From a virus (Duplodnaviria; Heunggongvirae; Uroviricota; Caudoviricetes): DNA of 38,639 nucleotides. The notes beneath the pieces are model-generated. The model did no database searches, was not told the DNA's origin, and worked only from the letters and a program-made list of their open reading frames with translations. The first letter of the stretch is position 1. Every line of letters begins with the position of its first letter. The DNA lies in IMG/VR virus record IMGVR_UViG_2778261594_000006, positions 1 through 38,639 of that record; one strand, given 5' to 3'. Of the stretch, positions 1 through 2,560 are shown in pieces. The translations under genes and the position numbers were made by a program.

Positions 1-1248
1 ATGGCACTGAATATTCCATTCAGAAATGCGTACTATCGTTTTGCATCCAGTTACTCATTTCTCTTTTTTATTTCCTGGTCGCTGTGGTGGTCGTTATACG
101 CTATTTGGCTGAAAGGACATCTAGGGTTGACAGGGACGGAATTAGGTACACTTTATTCGGTCAACCAGTTTACCAGCATTCTATTTATGATGTTCTACGG
201 CATCGTTCAGGATAAACTCGGTCTGAAGAAACCGCTCATCTGGTGTATGAGTTTCATCCTGGTCTTGACCGGACCGTTTATGATTTACGTTTATGAACCG
301 TTACTGCAAAGCAATTTTTCTGTAGGTCTAATTCTGGGGGCGCTATTTTTTGGCTTGGGGTATCTGGCGGGATGCGGTTTGCTTGATAGCTTCACCGAAA
401 AAATGGCGCGAAATTTTCATTTCGAATATGGAACAGCGCGCGCCTGGGGATCTTTTGGCTATGCTATTGGCGCGTTCTTTGCCGGCATATTTTTTAGTAT
501 CAGTCCCCATATCAACTTCTGGTTGGTCTCGCTATTTGGCGCTGTATTTATGATGATCAACATGCGTTTTAAAGATAAGGATCACCAGTGCGTAGCGGCA
601 GATGCGGGAGGGGTAAAAAAAGAGGATTTTATCGCAGTTTTCAAGGATCGAAACTTCTGGGTTTTCGTCATATTTATTGTGGGGACGTGGTCTTTCTATA
701 ACATTTTTGATCAACAACTTTTTCCTGTCTTTTATGCAGGTTTATTCGAATCACACGATGTAGGAACGCGCCTGTATGGTTATCTCAACTCATTCCAGGT
801 GGTACTCGAAGCGCTGTGCATGGCGATTATTCCTTTCTTTGTGAATCGGGTAGGGCCAAAAAATGCATTACTTATCGGAGTTGTGATTATGGCGTTGCGT
901 ATCCTTTCCTGCGCGCTGTTCGTTAACCCCTGGATTATTTCATTAGTGAAGTTGTTACATGCCATTGAGGTTCCACTTTGTGTCATATCCGTCTTCAAAT
1001 ACAGCGTGGCAAACTTTGATAAGCGCCTGTCGTCGACGATCTTTCTGATTGGTTTTCAAATTGCCAGTTCGCTTGGGATTGTGCTGCTTTCAACGCCGAC
1101 TGGGATACTCTTTGACCACGCAGGCTACCAGACAGTTTTCTTCGCAATTTCGGGTATTGTCTGCCTGATGTTGCTATTTGGCATTTTCTTCTTGAGTAAA
1201 AAACGCGAGCAAATAGTTATGGAAACGCCTGTACCTTCAGCAATATAG
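1..1248 (+). CDS. cscB: Sucrose permease, MFS oligosaccharide:H+ symporter (LacY family); chromosomal gene flanking the prophage
   Basis: 415-aa ORF with 12-TM-like hydrophobic pattern and clear LacY-family similarity; sequence matches my recollection of E. coli CscB. The csc locus is known to sit beside argW/dsd. Confidence 0.8.
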   Translation: MALNIPFRNAYYRFASSYSFLFFISWSLWWSLYAIWLKGHLGLTGTELGTLYSVNQFTSILFMMFYGIVQDKLGLKKPLIWCMSFILVLTGPFMIYVYEPLLQSNFSVGLILGALFFGLGYLAGCGLLDSFTEKMARNFHFEYGTARAWGSFGYAIGAFFAGIFFSISPHINFWLVSLFGAVFMMINMRFKDKDHQCVAADAGGVKKEDFIAVFKDRNFWVFVIFIVGTWSFYNIFDQQLFPVFYAGLFESHDVGTRLYGYLNSFQVVLEALCMAIIPFFVNRVGPKNALLIGVVIMALRILSCALFVNPWIISLVKLLHAIEVPLCVISVFKYSVANFDKRLSSTIFLIGFQIASSLGIVLLSTPTGILFDHAGYQTVFFAISGIVCLMLLFGIFFLSKKREQIVMETPVPSAI

Positions 1249-1689
1249 ACGTAAACTTTTTCCGGTTGTTGTCGATAGCTCTATATCCCTCAACCGGAAA
1301 ATAATAATAGTAAAATGCTTAGCCCTGCTAATAATCGCCTAATCCAAACGCCTCATTCATGTTCTGGTACAGTCGCTCAAATGTACTTCAGATGCGCGGT
1401 TCGCTGATTTCCAGGACATTGTCGTCATTCAGTGACCTGTCCCGTGTATCACGGTCCTGCGAATTCATCAAGGAATGCATTGCGGAGTGAAGTATCGAGT
1501 CACGCCATATTTCGCTATCAGGATTCTGTGTGATGGTTACATCGCCCGGCCCAGGGCTGTTTAGTCATCAGCGCTTTCTGACAGTGCTGAGATTTCAACC
1601 TGTTGCAGTAAAAATGAGTAGATATAAGGCAAGTGTGCTGCCAAACCCATCTTTTACGGGGTGAAGGTAGATTTCGTTTGAAGGGTATC

Positions 1690-1704
1690 TGGTGTCCCCT
1701 GCAG
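1690..1704. other. Prophage attachment-site core (attR-type), reverse complement of an Arg-tRNA 3' end (acceptor strand + CCA)
   Basis: tggtgtcccctgcag is the reverse complement of CTGCAGGGGACACCA, the 3' end of argW tRNA as I recall it; sits at the chromosome/phage boundary beside the excisionase. Confidence 0.6.
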
Positions 1705-1777
1705 ACATCTACTTGACGCGGCAGGGGATTGATTGGAATGATGTTTTTTAGATGTGAGAAATATTTTACCCGCTATT

Positions 1778-1978
1778 TTACCCATTGGCGCGGCTTAAGA
1801 GCTTATTTTTGAATTCACAATGGTCACGATATAACCATCTTGCTCGACCGTGGATAACTTTGGCTTTTGGCAGGTCGCCGGACTTAATCCGGTCGTAGAT
1901 GAAGGTTTTACCAAAGCCAGTATCGGCCATGATGAATTTCAAATCAACCAGTGAATCAGGCTGTAGTTCGTGTTGCAT
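1778..1978 (-). CDS. torI: TorI-type excisionase / recombination directionality factor
   Basis: 66-aa ORF MQHELQPDSLVDLKFIMADTGFGKTFIYDRIKSGDLPKAKVIHGRARWLYRDH..., matching my recollection of KplE1 TorI; RBS GGAGAT 7 nt upstream; adjacent to att core. Confidence 0.75.
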   Translation of the reverse strand: MQHELQPDSLVDLKFIMADTGFGKTFIYDRIKSGDLPKAKVIHGRARWLYRDHCEFKNKLLSRANG

Positions 1979-2020
1979 GAGTGCTATCTCCGAATAGGGA
2001 ATCGAACCTGCAAATCAGGC

Positions 2021-2044
2021 AATAAAAAACCGCCATCAGGCGGC
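2021..2044 (-). terminator. Rho-independent terminator (minus strand) upstream of torI
   Basis: Minus-strand RNA GCCGCC-UGAU-GGCGG followed by UUUUUUAUU. Confidence 0.55.
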
Positions 2045-2203
2045 TTGGTGTTCTTTCAGTTCTTCAATTCGAATATTGGTTACGTCTGCATGTGCTATCT
2101 GCGCCCACAGCATCCAGTGGGCATAGCAGTCGTTGATGTCCTCTGCTTCGATAACTCTGTTGAATGGTTCTCCATTCCATTCACCTGTGACTCGGAAGTG
2201 CAT
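2036..2203 (-). CDS. Small hypothetical protein (55 aa) between early-operon terminators and torI
   Basis: ATG at 2203 with GGAG RBS 7 nt upstream; translation MHFRVTGEWNGEPFNRVIEAEDINDCYAHWMLWAQIAHADVTNIRIEELKEHQAA; below the 60-aa track threshold. Confidence 0.3.
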   Translation of the reverse strand: MHFRVTGEWNGEPFNRVIEAEDINDCYAHWMLWAQIAHADVTNIRIEELKEHQAA

Positions 2204-2209
2204 TTATCA

Positions 2210-2271
2210 TCTCCATAAAACAAAACTCGCCGTAGCGAGTTCAGATAAAAGAAATCCCCGCGAATGCGAGG
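2210..2271 (-). terminator. Tandem rho-independent terminators at the end of the leftward early operon
   Basis: Hairpin 2256-2271 (CCUCGCAUUCGCGGGG) and hairpin 2225-2240 (ACUCGC-UACG-GCGAGU), each followed by a U-rich tract on the minus strand. Confidence 0.5.
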
Positions 2272-2275
2272 ATTG

Positions 2276-2560
2276 TTATTCATTGCTGATATTCACCTTT
2301 ATCGCGTATACCTTTACCGGTTTATCGCCGAAGTGGGGATGTGTGATTGTCTTGATTTCATATCCGTCATACGGGACATCAATTCTGCGACTGAAGTCGT
2401 CGCGCTTCGGATATCCCTTTGTGATAATCAGGCGGTCATACTTACGGTTAACGAGGCGCTTTTTCCAGTAGTCATTACACAGGCGATACTCTTCCGTTTT
2501 CTCTCCGCGAATCATGGCATCGAAGTATTCACCTTTAACGGCAAGTTGCAGGTTAGCCAC
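2276..2560 (-). CDS. ASCH/DUF3850-like small protein
   Basis: GTG start at 2560 with GGAGG RBS 6 nt upstream (track ORF starts further upstream but overlaps the preceding gene); motif GEYFDAMIRGEKTEEYR typical of ASCH-fold proteins. Confidence 0.55.
   Translation of the reverse strand: MANLQLAVKGEYFDAMIRGEKTEEYRLCNDYWKKRLVNRKYDRLIITKGYPKRDDFSRRIDVPYDGYEIKTITHPHFGDKPVKVYAIKVNISNE

What the first reader, a model, noticed from the sequence alone, without database searches (positions are those of the whole stretch)
1690..2044. Excisionase gene torI sits between two tRNA-derived segments: the att core and a separate T-arm-like fragment
The 15-nt att core (1690-1704) is the reverse complement of an Arg-tRNA 3' end. 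About 290 bp further in, at 1997-2013, is GGGAATCGAACCTGCAA, the reverse complement of a tRNA T-arm (TTGCAGGTTCGATTCCC). That is exactly the tRNA segment that normally lies immediately 5' of the core, in the same relative order and orientation. The torI ORF (1778-1978) fills nearly all of the intervening sequence, as if the excisionase cassette lies inside a split tRNA 3'-half homolog. No integrase is in the window, so int and xis appear to be at opposite prophage ends, as described for KplE1-type elements.
Basis: partly seen in the sequence, partly recalled or inferred. Interest (0 to 1): 0.5.

Follow-up and report, generated by a model that had tools for sequence, protein, structure and literature searches.

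The report
tRNA T-loop copy before prophage excisionase
This is the well-known right end (attR plus the excisionase gene torI) of a P22-like prophage sitting in the E. coli argW tRNA gene, and the extra "tRNA T-arm" piece in front of torI is real but is not half of a split tRNA: it is a short conserved leader element, identical to the tRNA sequence next to the integration crossover, whose function has not been tested.

Summary
Both sequence observations are confirmed. Window 1690-1704 is the last 15 nt of argW, and host homology starts exactly there. Window 1998-2013 is an exact 16-nt copy of the argW segment just 5' of that core. torI (1778-1978) is 100% identical to K-12 TorI. No integrase is in the window. 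This is the characterised KplE1/HK620/Sf6 recombination module in a P22-like prophage next to cscB, so the module is already known.

The "split tRNA half" reading is not supported. The phage keeps its own diverged T-loop-like site directly beside the core (consensus ATTnGATGTC|TGCAGG). No contiguous T-arm+core copy was found upstream of any xis.

Only CAGGTTCGATTCCC (2010-1997) is conserved. Its 11-nt centre is identical in 16 of 17 diverged contexts (Escherichia, Salmonella, Erwinia phages; Xis identity down to 36%), while the flanks are scrambled. It ends 15-18 nt before the xis ATG. It is tandemly duplicated in one lineage and absent from about 40% of family members. It varies with neither Xis-site type nor Int arm-site type.

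My best inference is a selected cis element in the xis leader that mimics the attB "B" half-site and may be bound by integrase. This is unproven. The published excision substrate (135-bp attR) does not include it. The same 16-mer was annotated as the att core in the CUS-3 GenBank record, almost certainly wrongly.

The parts
1..1248 (+). cscB-type sucrose/oligosaccharide permease, the host gene flanking the prophage
   Evidence: Pfam LacY_symp, E 1e-193. Annotated as an oligosaccharide MFS transporter next to argW in empty-site strain C5.
1249..1689 (.). Host DNA downstream of argW (the B' side of attR)
   Evidence: Aligned at up to 100% identity (93.8-100% over the listed genomes) with DNA 3' of argW in empty-site genomes (one search hits H7-H21).
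1690..1704 (-). att core: CTGCAGGGGACACCA, the last 15 nt of argW, which contains the crossover
   Evidence: The published KplE1 core is CTGCAGGGGACACCAT (PMC2951348). The same core lies 74 nt after the torI stop codon in the E. coli-type torI loci that extend that far; a few carry a point variant of the core.
1705..1777 (-). Phage P arm of attR, including the C-type site AAGTAGATGT next to the core
   Evidence: C-site consensus ATTnGATGTC|TGCAGG over 41 distinct sequences. The 135-bp attR that works in vitro starts at the torI 3' end (PMC3509656).
1763..1783 (-). Two direct GGGTAAAAT repeats (1775-1783 and 1763-1771), probably IntS arm-type sites P1/P2; the first overlaps the torI stop codon
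   Evidence: Read from the sequence. PMC2951348 reports a TAAA motif in all IntS P' arm-type sites. Binding here is inferred, not shown.
1778..1978 (-). torI, the excisionase (recombination directionality factor)
   Evidence: 66/66 identical to K-12 TorI. Matches PDB 1Z4H, E 7e-43. 100% identical to HK620 HkaC and Sf6 gp18.
1988..1991 (-). Shine-Dalgarno GGAG of torI
   Evidence: Read from the sequence. Conserved as GGAG in 17 contexts.
1997..2010 (-). Conserved leader element CAGGTTCGATTCCC. Its first 13 nt equal argW T-arm positions 50-62, i.e. the attB sequence directly left of the crossover.
   Evidence: The 11-nt centre GTTCGATTCCC is identical in 16 of 17 diverged upstream contexts (one has a single C-to-T change), while flanking columns are mostly 40-60% identical. 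It is present in Erwinia and Salmonella phages whose Xis is 36-88% identical.
1998..2013 (-).
2011..2023 (-). TTGCCTGATTTGC: TTGC-N5-TTGC, annotated in HK620 as a cII binding site of a 'phage integration' promoter
   Evidence: HK620 annotation. Lambda-type prophages have TTGCGTGTAATTGC (N6) at the same place after the same terminator. About a quarter of E. coli-type loci have TTAC in the first box.
2021..2046 (-). Intrinsic terminator (stem 2046-2027, then a T run) ending the upstream orf55 module; a mosaic joint shared with lambda, HK022, 434 and Stx phages
   Evidence: Annotated as terminator tL4 in HK022. Homology with lambdoid phages stops at 2016-2024.
2036..2203 (-). orf55-like small ORF of the early-left operon, upstream of the terminator

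Best explanation
Anatomy (shown). Window 1249-2046 is the attR end of a P22-like prophage with the KplE1/HK620/Sf6 recombination module, integrated in argW next to cscB. In tRNA orientation (window - strand) the order is:
- terminator of the early-left operon
- leader element CAGGTTCGATTCCC
- GGAG
- torI
- two arm-type repeats
- C-type site
- 15-nt core
- host DNA.

The T-arm-like piece (shown). It is not the other half of a split tRNA. It is a second, perfect copy of the sequence that flanks the crossover on the bacterial side (the attB 'B' half-site). It sits in the leader of the excisionase gene and has been kept by selection in many diverged phages that all use argW.

Mechanism (inferred, not shown). 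Three features are constant in every module that carries the element: the argW core, the integrase type that goes with it, and enterobacterial hosts. The phage's own site beside the core keeps the same TTnGAT letters. I therefore think the element is most likely bound by the core-binding/catalytic part of the integrase. That would tie integrase occupancy either to expression of xis (blocking or modulating read-through or initiation just before its ribosome-binding site) or to assembly of the integrative complex. It is not part of the 135-bp attR that suffices for excision in vitro.
For: Anatomy; PMC2951348 and PMC3509656.

Conservation:
- The 13-mer is exact in Erwinia phages Midgardsormr38 (two tandem copies) and phiEt88, and has one change in Salmonella phage Emek. 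Flanks are unrelated.
- 25 of 34 viral-contig hits to the pattern 13-mer + non-T base + 2-8 nt + GGAG precede TorI-family genes of many types.
- 19 of 33 distinct upstream contexts carry it. Among contexts not selected on the motif the figure is 13 of 27.
- In 17 diverged contexts the 11-nt centre is identical in 16, with a single C-to-T change in the other; flanking columns are mostly 40-60% identical.

Not an Xis operator and not an arm-type site:
- Xis types GKTF[IM]Y and T[AS]KYFY go with different P'-arm repeats (GTTC[GT] against [GA]T[AT]ACC).
- Arm-type repeats are either GGGTAAAA or GGGCATA.
- All of these combinations carry the same element.

Link to core recognition: the phage C site has consensus ATTnGATGTC|TGCAGG, against argW GTTCGATTCC|TGCAGG.

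Not required for excision: the 135-bp attR substrate starts at the torI 3' end.
Against: - No binding or expression data exist for this element, so the integrase link rests on elimination.
- About 40% of family members lack the element yet have the same core (Chronis, EhrS_49, L445/L450 and others). It is dispensable.
- Within the E. coli clade it is no less polymorphic than the rest of the leader: 0.93 against 1.13 minor alleles per site.
- A lone half-site is a weak target for a tyrosine recombinase.
- Its position just upstream of the Shine-Dalgarno sequence would fit an RNA-level role equally well.
- Every family member targets argW, so the decisive covariation test (a different tRNA giving a different element) could not be done.
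Confidence: 0.4

Rival explanations
1. RNA-level leader element. In the read-through transcript from the early-left operon, the C-rich, G-poor segment UUCGAUUCCC(AAACC) just 5' of the Shine-Dalgarno sequence controls torI translation or transcript fate. It could do this by weakly pairing with the SD (GGUU..UUCC with GGAG..AACC), or as part of a Rho loading site that keeps the excisionase silent in the lysogen.
For: The element ends 3-7 nt (usually 5) before GGAG and 15-18 nt before the ATG in all lineages. Single-sequence folds repeatedly pair GGUU/AACC and UUCC/GGAG. From memory, not retrievable here: Menouni et al. 2013 PNAS reported that Rho-dependent termination limits torI expression and KplE1 excision. 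PMC11551753 confirms increased copy number of the KplE1 (CPS-53) region under bicyclomycin.
Against: Consensus fold energy is only -1.6 kcal/mol with no compensatory changes. Single folds are no better than shuffles, z from +0.9 to -1.0. Neither a Rho loading site nor a 4-bp anti-SD pairing needs 11-14 invariant bases, or identity to the target tRNA. Rfam has no family here.
Confidence: 0.2
2. Part of a lambda pI-like promoter activated by the phage cII/C1 protein, as annotated for HK620 and Sf6. The TTGC..TTGC boxes flank the -35 region and the 13-mer fills the spacer to a weak -10 (TATTCG). The transcript would then start after the torI SD and give integrase without excisionase during lysogenisation.
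For: HK620 carries the annotations 'promoter, phage integration' and 'cII protein' binding site exactly here, and Sf6 carries 'pI'. Lambda-type prophages with the same upstream orf55 and terminator have the true pI box TTGCGTGTAATTGC at the same position before xis. In the window the second TTGC is followed by 13 nt and then TATTCG, the same spacing I recall for lambda pI (memory).
Against: Box spacing is N5, not N6. About a quarter of E. coli-type loci have TTAC in the first box. Other lineages keep the 13-mer but have no TTGC boxes and no conserved -10. A promoter spacer is not expected to be the most conserved block. The sigma-70 scan finds nothing on this strand.
Confidence: 0.15
3. Neutral relic. 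An ancestral attP carried a longer copy of the argW 3' half (T-arm through CCA), and torI was later inserted into or joined to it, leaving the T-arm piece stranded upstream.
For: In E. coli phages the two pieces tile the last 30 nt of argW with a 1-nt overlap, in the same order and orientation. Element-less relatives look like a clean 25-nt indel at the same spot.
Against: The centre is identical in 16 of 17 lineages whose flanks, and even Xis proteins (36-52% identity), have diverged. The 13th-14th base CC-C (not CC-T) is shared by nearly all of them. attP has its own diverged T-loop copy next to the core. There is no significant similarity beyond the 13-mer. No unsplit form was found. One lineage has a tandem duplication.
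Confidence: 0.1
4. TorI operator: the excisionase binds GTTCG in the element and autoregulates its own gene.
For: The element contains (C)AGGTTCG or CAGTTCG, like the repeated CAGTTCGC/TGGTTCGC motifs in the P' arm where TorI is reported to bind.
Against: Phages whose Xis has a different recognition helix and whose P' arms carry [GA]T[AT]ACC repeats instead of GTTCG (phiEt88, L436, L443) keep the same element.
Confidence: 0.07
5. It is the true att core, i.e. the crossover site, as annotated in the CUS-3 GenBank record. The prophage would then end before torI.
For: The 16-mer is a direct repeat at both ends of the prophage, and CP000711 labels it 'attL core' and 'attR core'.
Against: Host homology in empty-site genomes begins at 1704, not at 1997. 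The CUS-3 integrase is 380/385 identical to the HK620 integrase, whose core is CTGCAGGGGACACCAT (PMC2951348). The CUS-3 record contains no RDF. In UTI89, whose sequence is 100% identical to the last 809 nt of the CUS-3 record, torI follows 20 nt later and then dsdC.
Confidence: 0.02

Closest known systems
KplE1 (CPS-53) / HK620 / Sf6 recombination module (Panis, Mejean & Ansaldi 2007; PMC2951348; PMC3509656)
   Same: It has the same core (CTGCAGGGGACACCA), the same TorI protein (100%) and the same torI-to-core distance. The GGGTAAAAT repeats, the xis-attP-int order and the leader with the T-arm-like 16-mer are also shared (K-12 L002 2517-2532).
   Different: The host flank is cscB rather than dsdC, so the 16th core base (T) is not duplicated here. 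The prophage appears full-length and P22-like rather than a 10-kb remnant. The leader element is not mentioned in the two open papers of that group that I could read.
Phage CUS-3 of E. coli K1 (GenBank CP000711)
   Same: Window 2300-1998 is 96.7% identical to the CUS-3 right end. The integrase type is the same. The same 16-mer is present.
   Different: The record stops at the 16-mer and calls it the att core. The window, and UTI89, show that torI and the real core follow.
Lambda pI / xis region
   Same: The upstream orf55 and terminator module is shared. xis directly follows a TTGC..TTGC box and GGAGA.
   Different: Lambda has xis-int-attP, no tRNA target and no T-loop element. Here 18 nt (AGGTTCGATTCCCTATTC) lie between the second TTGC and GGAGA.
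Extended tRNA identity blocks in attP of tRNA-integrating elements (e.g. P22 at thrW; sublocation classes of Williams 2002) - from memory
   Same: A phage-borne copy of tRNA 3' sequence that includes the T-loop.
   Different: In those elements the tRNA copy is contiguous and contains the crossover. Here the perfect T-loop copy is 290 bp from the crossover, separated from it by the xis gene.

Membership tests
KplE1/HK620/Sf6-type site-specific recombination module | Integration in argW with a duplicated core CTGCAGGGGACACCA(T) | tested here: met
   The core is at 1690-1704. It is the 3' end of argW and the start of host homology. The second copy lies outside the window.
KplE1/HK620/Sf6-type site-specific recombination module | TorI-type RDF gene as the last prophage gene, reading towards attR | tested here: met
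   66/66 identity to K-12 TorI and a match to PDB 1Z4H. The core lies 74 nt after the stop codon.
KplE1/HK620/Sf6-type site-specific recombination module | IntS-type integrase at the opposite end, next to attL | not testable with these tools
   No integrase is in the window, and the window ends at the tailspike gene. In HK620, Sf6, Midgardsormr38, Emek and phiEt88 the integrase follows the core.
KplE1/HK620/Sf6-type site-specific recombination module | IntS arm-type sites (TAAA motif) and an IHF site in attR; excision depends on IntS + TorI | tested here: inconclusive
   Two GGGTAAAAT repeats are present at 1763-1783. Binding and excision cannot be tested in silico.
tRNA gene or tRNA pseudogene | Cloverleaf, or at least a T-arm helix (5-bp stem around the loop) | tested here: not met
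   ARAGORN finds none. After TTCGATT the stem is broken (CCCTA where argW has CCTGC), and only 2 bp can form (read from the sequence).
att core (crossover) site, as in the CUS-3 annotation | Boundary between prophage and host DNA lies within the repeat | tested here: not met
   Empty-site genomes align only from 1704 downwards. Positions 1705-2013, including torI, are prophage DNA.
cII/C1-dependent promoter of the lambda pI type | TTGC-N6-TTGC flanking a poor -35, with a -10 about 13 nt after the second box | tested here: inconclusive
   The spacing is N5. The first box is TTAC in about 24% of loci. The boxes are absent from other lineages that keep the 13-mer. No transcript data are available.
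P22-like (Lederbergvirus) prophage | P22-type tailspike head-binding domain and P22 antirepressor; synteny with HK620/Sf6 | tested here: met
   Pfam Head_binding, E 7e-67; P22_AR_N and P22_AR_C. Best phage matches are P22-like phages.
Structured RNA family (Rfam) | Match above the gathering score, or a conserved fold with covariation | tested here: not met
   No hit at or above the gathering score. The alifold consensus is -1.6 kcal/mol with 0 compensatory pairs.

The most novel reading that the evidence does not exclude
The conserved CAGGTTCGATTCCC in front of TorI-family excisionase genes is a working copy of the bacterial attB half-site. The integrase's catalytic/core-binding domains bind it. 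This gives argW-integrating phages with the xis-attP-int gene order an integrase-dependent control of excisionase expression, or an extra contact needed only for integration. That would be a directionality control not described for tyrosine-recombinase modules.
Probability: 0.22. Interest if true: 0.55.

Novelty: new member of a known kind. Interest (0 to 1): 0.33.

Why it matters
The locus itself is ordinary: one more copy of a recombination module that has been dissected biochemically. Two things have practical value.

First, the T-arm-like repeat is a trap for annotating prophage boundaries. It equals the tRNA just as well as the true core does. It has apparently already caused one reference phage record (CUS-3) to be cut short of its excisionase gene and real attR.

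Second, the repeat is not debris. A 13-14-nt block identical to the attB half-site is kept in front of xis in phages of at least three host genera whose Xis proteins, Xis sites and Int arm sites have all changed. That points to an untested control point for excisionase expression or intasome assembly in a model system where the proteins, substrates and assays already exist, so it could be tested quickly.

Tried and rejected
1. Pseudo-core idea: the whole torI leader is a decayed copy of the T-arm, acceptor stem and CCA. The similarity after the 13-mer is not significant (best 9/17, shuffle p >= 0.055). Rejected.
2. Search for an unsplit ancestor (GGTTCGATTCCTGCAGGGGAC in viral contigs). All 120 hits are complete argW genes at attL or attB.
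3. Covariation test with other target tRNAs. Every TorI-family locus found uses an argW-type core. Integrase relatives fall from 61% to below 38% identity, and the five distant relatives inspected have other gene orders. The test is not possible with these data.
4. Conserved RNA structure or a known RNA family. None found.
5. Sigma-70 promoter on the torI strand. None found.
6. Upstream ORF or N-terminal extension encoding the element. The window has an in-frame TGA and no start codon between it and the ATG, and there is no conserved uORF (read from the sequences).
7. Scan for the 17-mer in 185,579 species genomes. Apart from E. coli torI loci, many hits are true tRNAs (by their flanking sequence, mostly Thr or Arg) of unrelated phyla, and the rest are unrelated sequence. 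Uninformative about origin.
8. Literature. No paper in the library contains the 16-mer or 13-mer as a string, except as tRNA-Arg probes. Panis 2007 (JBC), King 2007 (J Bacteriol) and Menouni 2013 (PNAS) are not held.
9. Population-level constraint within E. coli. The element is no more conserved than the rest of the leader, although the whole leader is about 3-fold less polymorphic than torI third-codon positions.
Full report
**1. What is in the sequence**

On the - strand, which is the orientation of the tRNA, window 2046-1600 reads in this order:
- an intrinsic terminator (stem 2046-2027, then a T run)
- ATTGCCTGAT
- TTGCAGGTTCGATTCCC (2013-1997)
- TATTC
- GGAG (1991-1988)
- ATAGCACTC
- ATG, the start of torI (1978-1778)
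- GGGTAAAAT twice (1783-1763)
- about 58 nt of P arm ending AAGTAGATGT
- CTGCAGGGGACACCA (1704-1690)
- GATACCCTTCAAACG....

ARAGORN finds no tRNA gene anywhere in the window. Each tRNA-like piece is unique in the window even when 2-3 mismatches are allowed.

**2. Check against the real argW**

4,196 of 5,426 complete E. coli genomes match part of window 1250-2300. Genomes with an empty site align only with window 1704-1250, at up to 100% identity, and the match is annotated tRNA-Arg.

In strain C5 the gene reads gtcctcttagttaaatggatataacgagcccctcctaagggctaaTTGCAGGTTCGATTCCTGCAGGGGACACCAgatacccttc.... This gives three results:
- 1690-1704 is the last 15 nt of argW and is the host/prophage joint.
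- 2013-1998 is an exact copy of the 16 nt that precede it in the tRNA. The two copies share one C.
- Everything between them, including torI, is prophage DNA.

K-12 (KplE1), HK620, Sf6, Kapi1 and many other P22-like phages have the same arrangement at 97-99% identity. TorI is 66/66 identical to the K-12 protein whose NMR structure is 1Z4H.

The rest of the window is a P22-like prophage, with a tailspike head-binding domain and a P22 antirepressor. No integrase is present. The host gene on the left is a cscB-type permease.

All of this matches the published KplE1 recombination module. In that module torI-attR and attL-intS lie at opposite prophage ends and the core is CTGCAGGGGACACCAT (PMC2951348; PMC3509656; PMC8787464).

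**3. Is torI inside a split tRNA half?**

I looked at relatives whose sequences have drifted. tblastn with TorI finds excisionases of 81-88% identity in Erwinia and Klebsiella phages. It finds 51-53% identity in Salmonella phages (Emek, g341c) and 39% in Erwinia phage phiEt88. All have the order xis, then about 250 bp, then int.

Their leaders, written from the element to the ATG:

| Phage | Leader sequence | Note |
|---|---|---|
| Midgardsormr38 | CCACAGGTTCGATTCCCGTCAGGTTCGATTCCCACCGGAGATACACTTATG | two tandem copies |
| Emek | TCCAAGTTCGATTCCCAAACCGGAGATAAAACCTATG | one change |
| phiEt88 | GGCTAGGTTCGATTCCCAGCAAAGGAGTACAACCCATG | exact |
| Chronis, EhrS_49 | no element | xis abuts the upstream gene |

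A pattern scan of IMG/VR for AGGTTCGATTCCC, a non-T base, 2-8 nt and then GGAG gave 34 hits. 25 of them sit in front of TorI-family genes of many different sequences.

Sampling the family through the protein instead gave 172 loci with 33 clearly different upstream contexts:
- 19 carry GTTCGATT[C/T]CC. Among the 27 contexts not selected on the motif, 13 carry it.
- One has a partly deleted copy.
- 13 lack it.

I aligned 17 diverged contexts on the element. The 11 central positions are identical in 16 of them; the other has one C-to-T change. The three positions before the centre are 70-90% CAG. Flanking columns are mostly 40-60% identical, until GGAG. The element ends 18 nt before the ATG in most lineages and 15-17 nt in a few.

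The conserved unit is therefore CAGGTTCGATTCCC. Its first 13 nt equal argW positions 50-62. The last C, where argW has T, is shared by nearly all lineages. The TTGC that extends the match to 16 nt occurs only in the E. coli clade.

**4. Why this contradicts a simple split**

- The phage side of the core is not unrelated sequence. Over 41 distinct sequences the 10 nt left of TGCAGG have the consensus ATTnGATGTC, and several lineages read ATTCGATGT. argW has GTTCGATTCC. attP thus has its own diverged T-loop counterpart contiguous with the core, and the leader element is a second and better copy.
- After the 13-mer the leader is not significantly similar to TGCAGGGGACACCATTT (p >= 0.055 in every lineage).
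- All 120 viral-contig hits to the contiguous sequence GGTTCGATTCCTGCAGGGGAC are complete argW genes, none in front of xis.
- Relatives without the element look like a clean indel: TTTTTTATTGCCTG|GAGATAATGATATG, against the window's GCCTG[ATTTGCAGGTTCGATTCCCTATTCG]GAGATAG. They still carry an argW-type core.
- In the E. coli clade the TTGC lines up with the second box of a lambda pI-like TTGC..TTGC motif. Lambda-type prophages share the upstream orf55 and terminator and then read TTTTTTCTTGCGTGTAATTGCGGAGACTTTGCGATG(xis). Removing the 18 nt AGGTTCGATTCCCTATTC from the window gives a very similar string. Part of the 16-nt match therefore probably has a different origin.

**5. What keeps the element?**

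A relic would have decayed along with its flanks, so selection is the simplest reading. I tested the obvious candidates against the comparative data.

*Xis operator.* The element contains GTTCG, the repeated motif of the P' arm where TorI is reported to bind. However, Xis proteins with the helix T[AS]KYFY go with P' arms carrying four [GA]T[AT]ACC repeats and no GTTCG. Those with GKTF[IM]Y go with three to five GTTC[GT] repeats. Both classes keep the same element. This is evidence against an Xis operator.

*Int arm-type site.* Arm repeats are GGGTAAAA in some lineages and GGGCATA in others, and both kinds carry the same element. Evidence against.

*cII/C1 promoter, as annotated in HK620 and Sf6.* The spacing is N5, not N6. 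The first box is TTAC in about a quarter of loci. The boxes are missing from other lineages that keep the element. A spacer is not expected to be the most conserved part. This remains possible for the E. coli clade, but it does not explain the element.

*RNA element.* The position just 5' of the SD fits. Single folds recurrently pair GGUU/AACC and UUCC/GGAG. But the energies equal those of shuffles, there is no covariation, and there is no Rfam family.

*uORF.* Excluded by an in-frame stop codon and the absence of a start codon.

Three features are invariant wherever the element occurs: the argW core, the integrase type that goes with it, and enterobacterial hosts. The element equals the bacterial B half-site, and the phage C site keeps the same TTnGAT letters. 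The most economical inference is that the integrase's core-binding/catalytic domains recognise it. This is inference by elimination, not demonstration.

The published in vitro excision assay uses a 135-bp attR. Its left primer lies at the 3' end of torI (PMC3509656). The element is therefore not needed for excision in vitro. Its role in integration or in torI expression has not, to my knowledge, been tested.

From memory only, since the paper is not held: Menouni et al. 2013 showed that Rho-dependent termination limits torI expression in K-12. That makes the leader a known control region in general terms. PMC11551753 confirms increased copy number of the KplE1 (CPS-53) region under bicyclomycin.

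**6. Limits**

- Within the E. coli clade (80 loci) the element has 0.93 minor alleles per site against 1.13 for the rest of the leader. torI third-codon positions have 3.46. The whole leader is constrained, and the element does not stand out at this shallow depth.
- About 40% of lineages do without it.
- No family member uses another tRNA. The next integrase relatives are below 38% identical, and the five I inspected have other architectures. The covariation test that would decide between an attB mimic and other roles could not be run.

**7. A practical consequence**

The CUS-3 reference record (CP000711) labels TTGCAGGTTCGATTCC at its two ends 'attL core' and 'attR core', and it stops there. 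Four points argue that this is a mis-annotation:
- Its integrase is 380/385 identical to that of HK620.
- Its P' arm supplies TGCAGGGGACACCA directly after the 'core'.
- The record has no excisionase.
- In UTI89, which is 100% identical to the last 809 nt of the CUS-3 record, torI starts 20 nt after the point where the record ends and is followed by dsdC.

The record therefore most probably lacks torI and the true attR. The cause would be that the T-arm-like repeat is as long as the true core repeat.

**8. Verdict**

The locus is a new copy of an already characterised system. The int/xis and att-core parts of the interpretation are right but already known. The split-tRNA reading is not supported. 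The one non-trivial result is that the T-arm-like piece is a conserved 13-14-nt leader element identical to the attB half-site. I found no description of it in the literature available to me, and its function is open.

Noticed in passing
CUS-3 record CP000711 (L003 1693-1708, L004 1-16); UTI89 L576 2309-2529: The CUS-3 GenBank record annotates the T-arm-like 16-mer as attL and attR core and ends there, so it lacks torI and the true attR. In UTI89, which is identical to the last 809 nt of the record, torI begins 20 nt after the record's end. The CUS-3 integrase is 380/385 identical to the HK620 integrase.
   Followed up: yes
L250, L253, L254, L415, L436, L443, L008 (P' arms after the core): The Xis recognition-helix type covaries with the repeats in the P' arm. 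GKTF[IM]Y goes with three to five GTTC[GT] repeats, and T[AS]KYFY goes with four [GA]T[AT]ACC repeats. Integrase arm-type repeats also come in two kinds, GGGTAAAA and GGGCATA.
   Followed up: partly
L250 2156-2200; L354; L362: The leader element is tandemly duplicated with a 16-nt period (CAGGTTCGATTCCCGT x2) in Erwinia phage Midgardsormr38 and two related viral contigs.
   Followed up: partly
L445, L448, L450, L452-L455 (upstream of xis): These TorI-family loci lack the element and read TTTTTTATTGCCTG|GAGATAATGATATG. That looks like a clean ~25-nt indel relative to the window. Their core is the variant CTGCAGGGGACGCCA.
   Followed up: partly
window 2016-2300: The orf55 plus terminator segment is 93-97% identical to lambda-type prophages, HK022 (terminator tL4), 434 and many Stx phages. 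The homology stops at the T run or the GCCTG just before the element. This is a mosaic joint exactly where each phage's own xis/int module begins.
   Followed up: partly
window 1713-1742 (+ strand): There is a promoter-like site, TTGACG-18-AATGAT with a TG, inside the P arm. It points antisense into torI. The count of such sites in the region is no higher than in shuffles.
   Followed up: no
window 1928-2055 (+ strand): A weak sub-threshold Rfam match to the sRNA STnc130 (25 bits against a gathering score of 55, E 0.24). It lies antisense to the torI 5' end, the element and the terminator.
   Followed up: no
L012-L129 (genome-contig hits to the 17-mer): The exact 17-mer TTGCAGGTTCGATTCCC occurs in what look, from their flanking sequence, like true tRNA genes (mostly Thr or Arg) of Clostridia, Pelagibacterales, Verrucomicrobia and others. 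In these the T stem would carry an A51-C63 mismatch.
   Followed up: no
window 1-1704: The prophage lies in the argW-csc (sucrose utilisation) version of the variable argW-dsdCXA locus. Because the flank after CCA starts with G rather than T, only 15 of the 16 published core bases are duplicated in this strain.
   Followed up: partly
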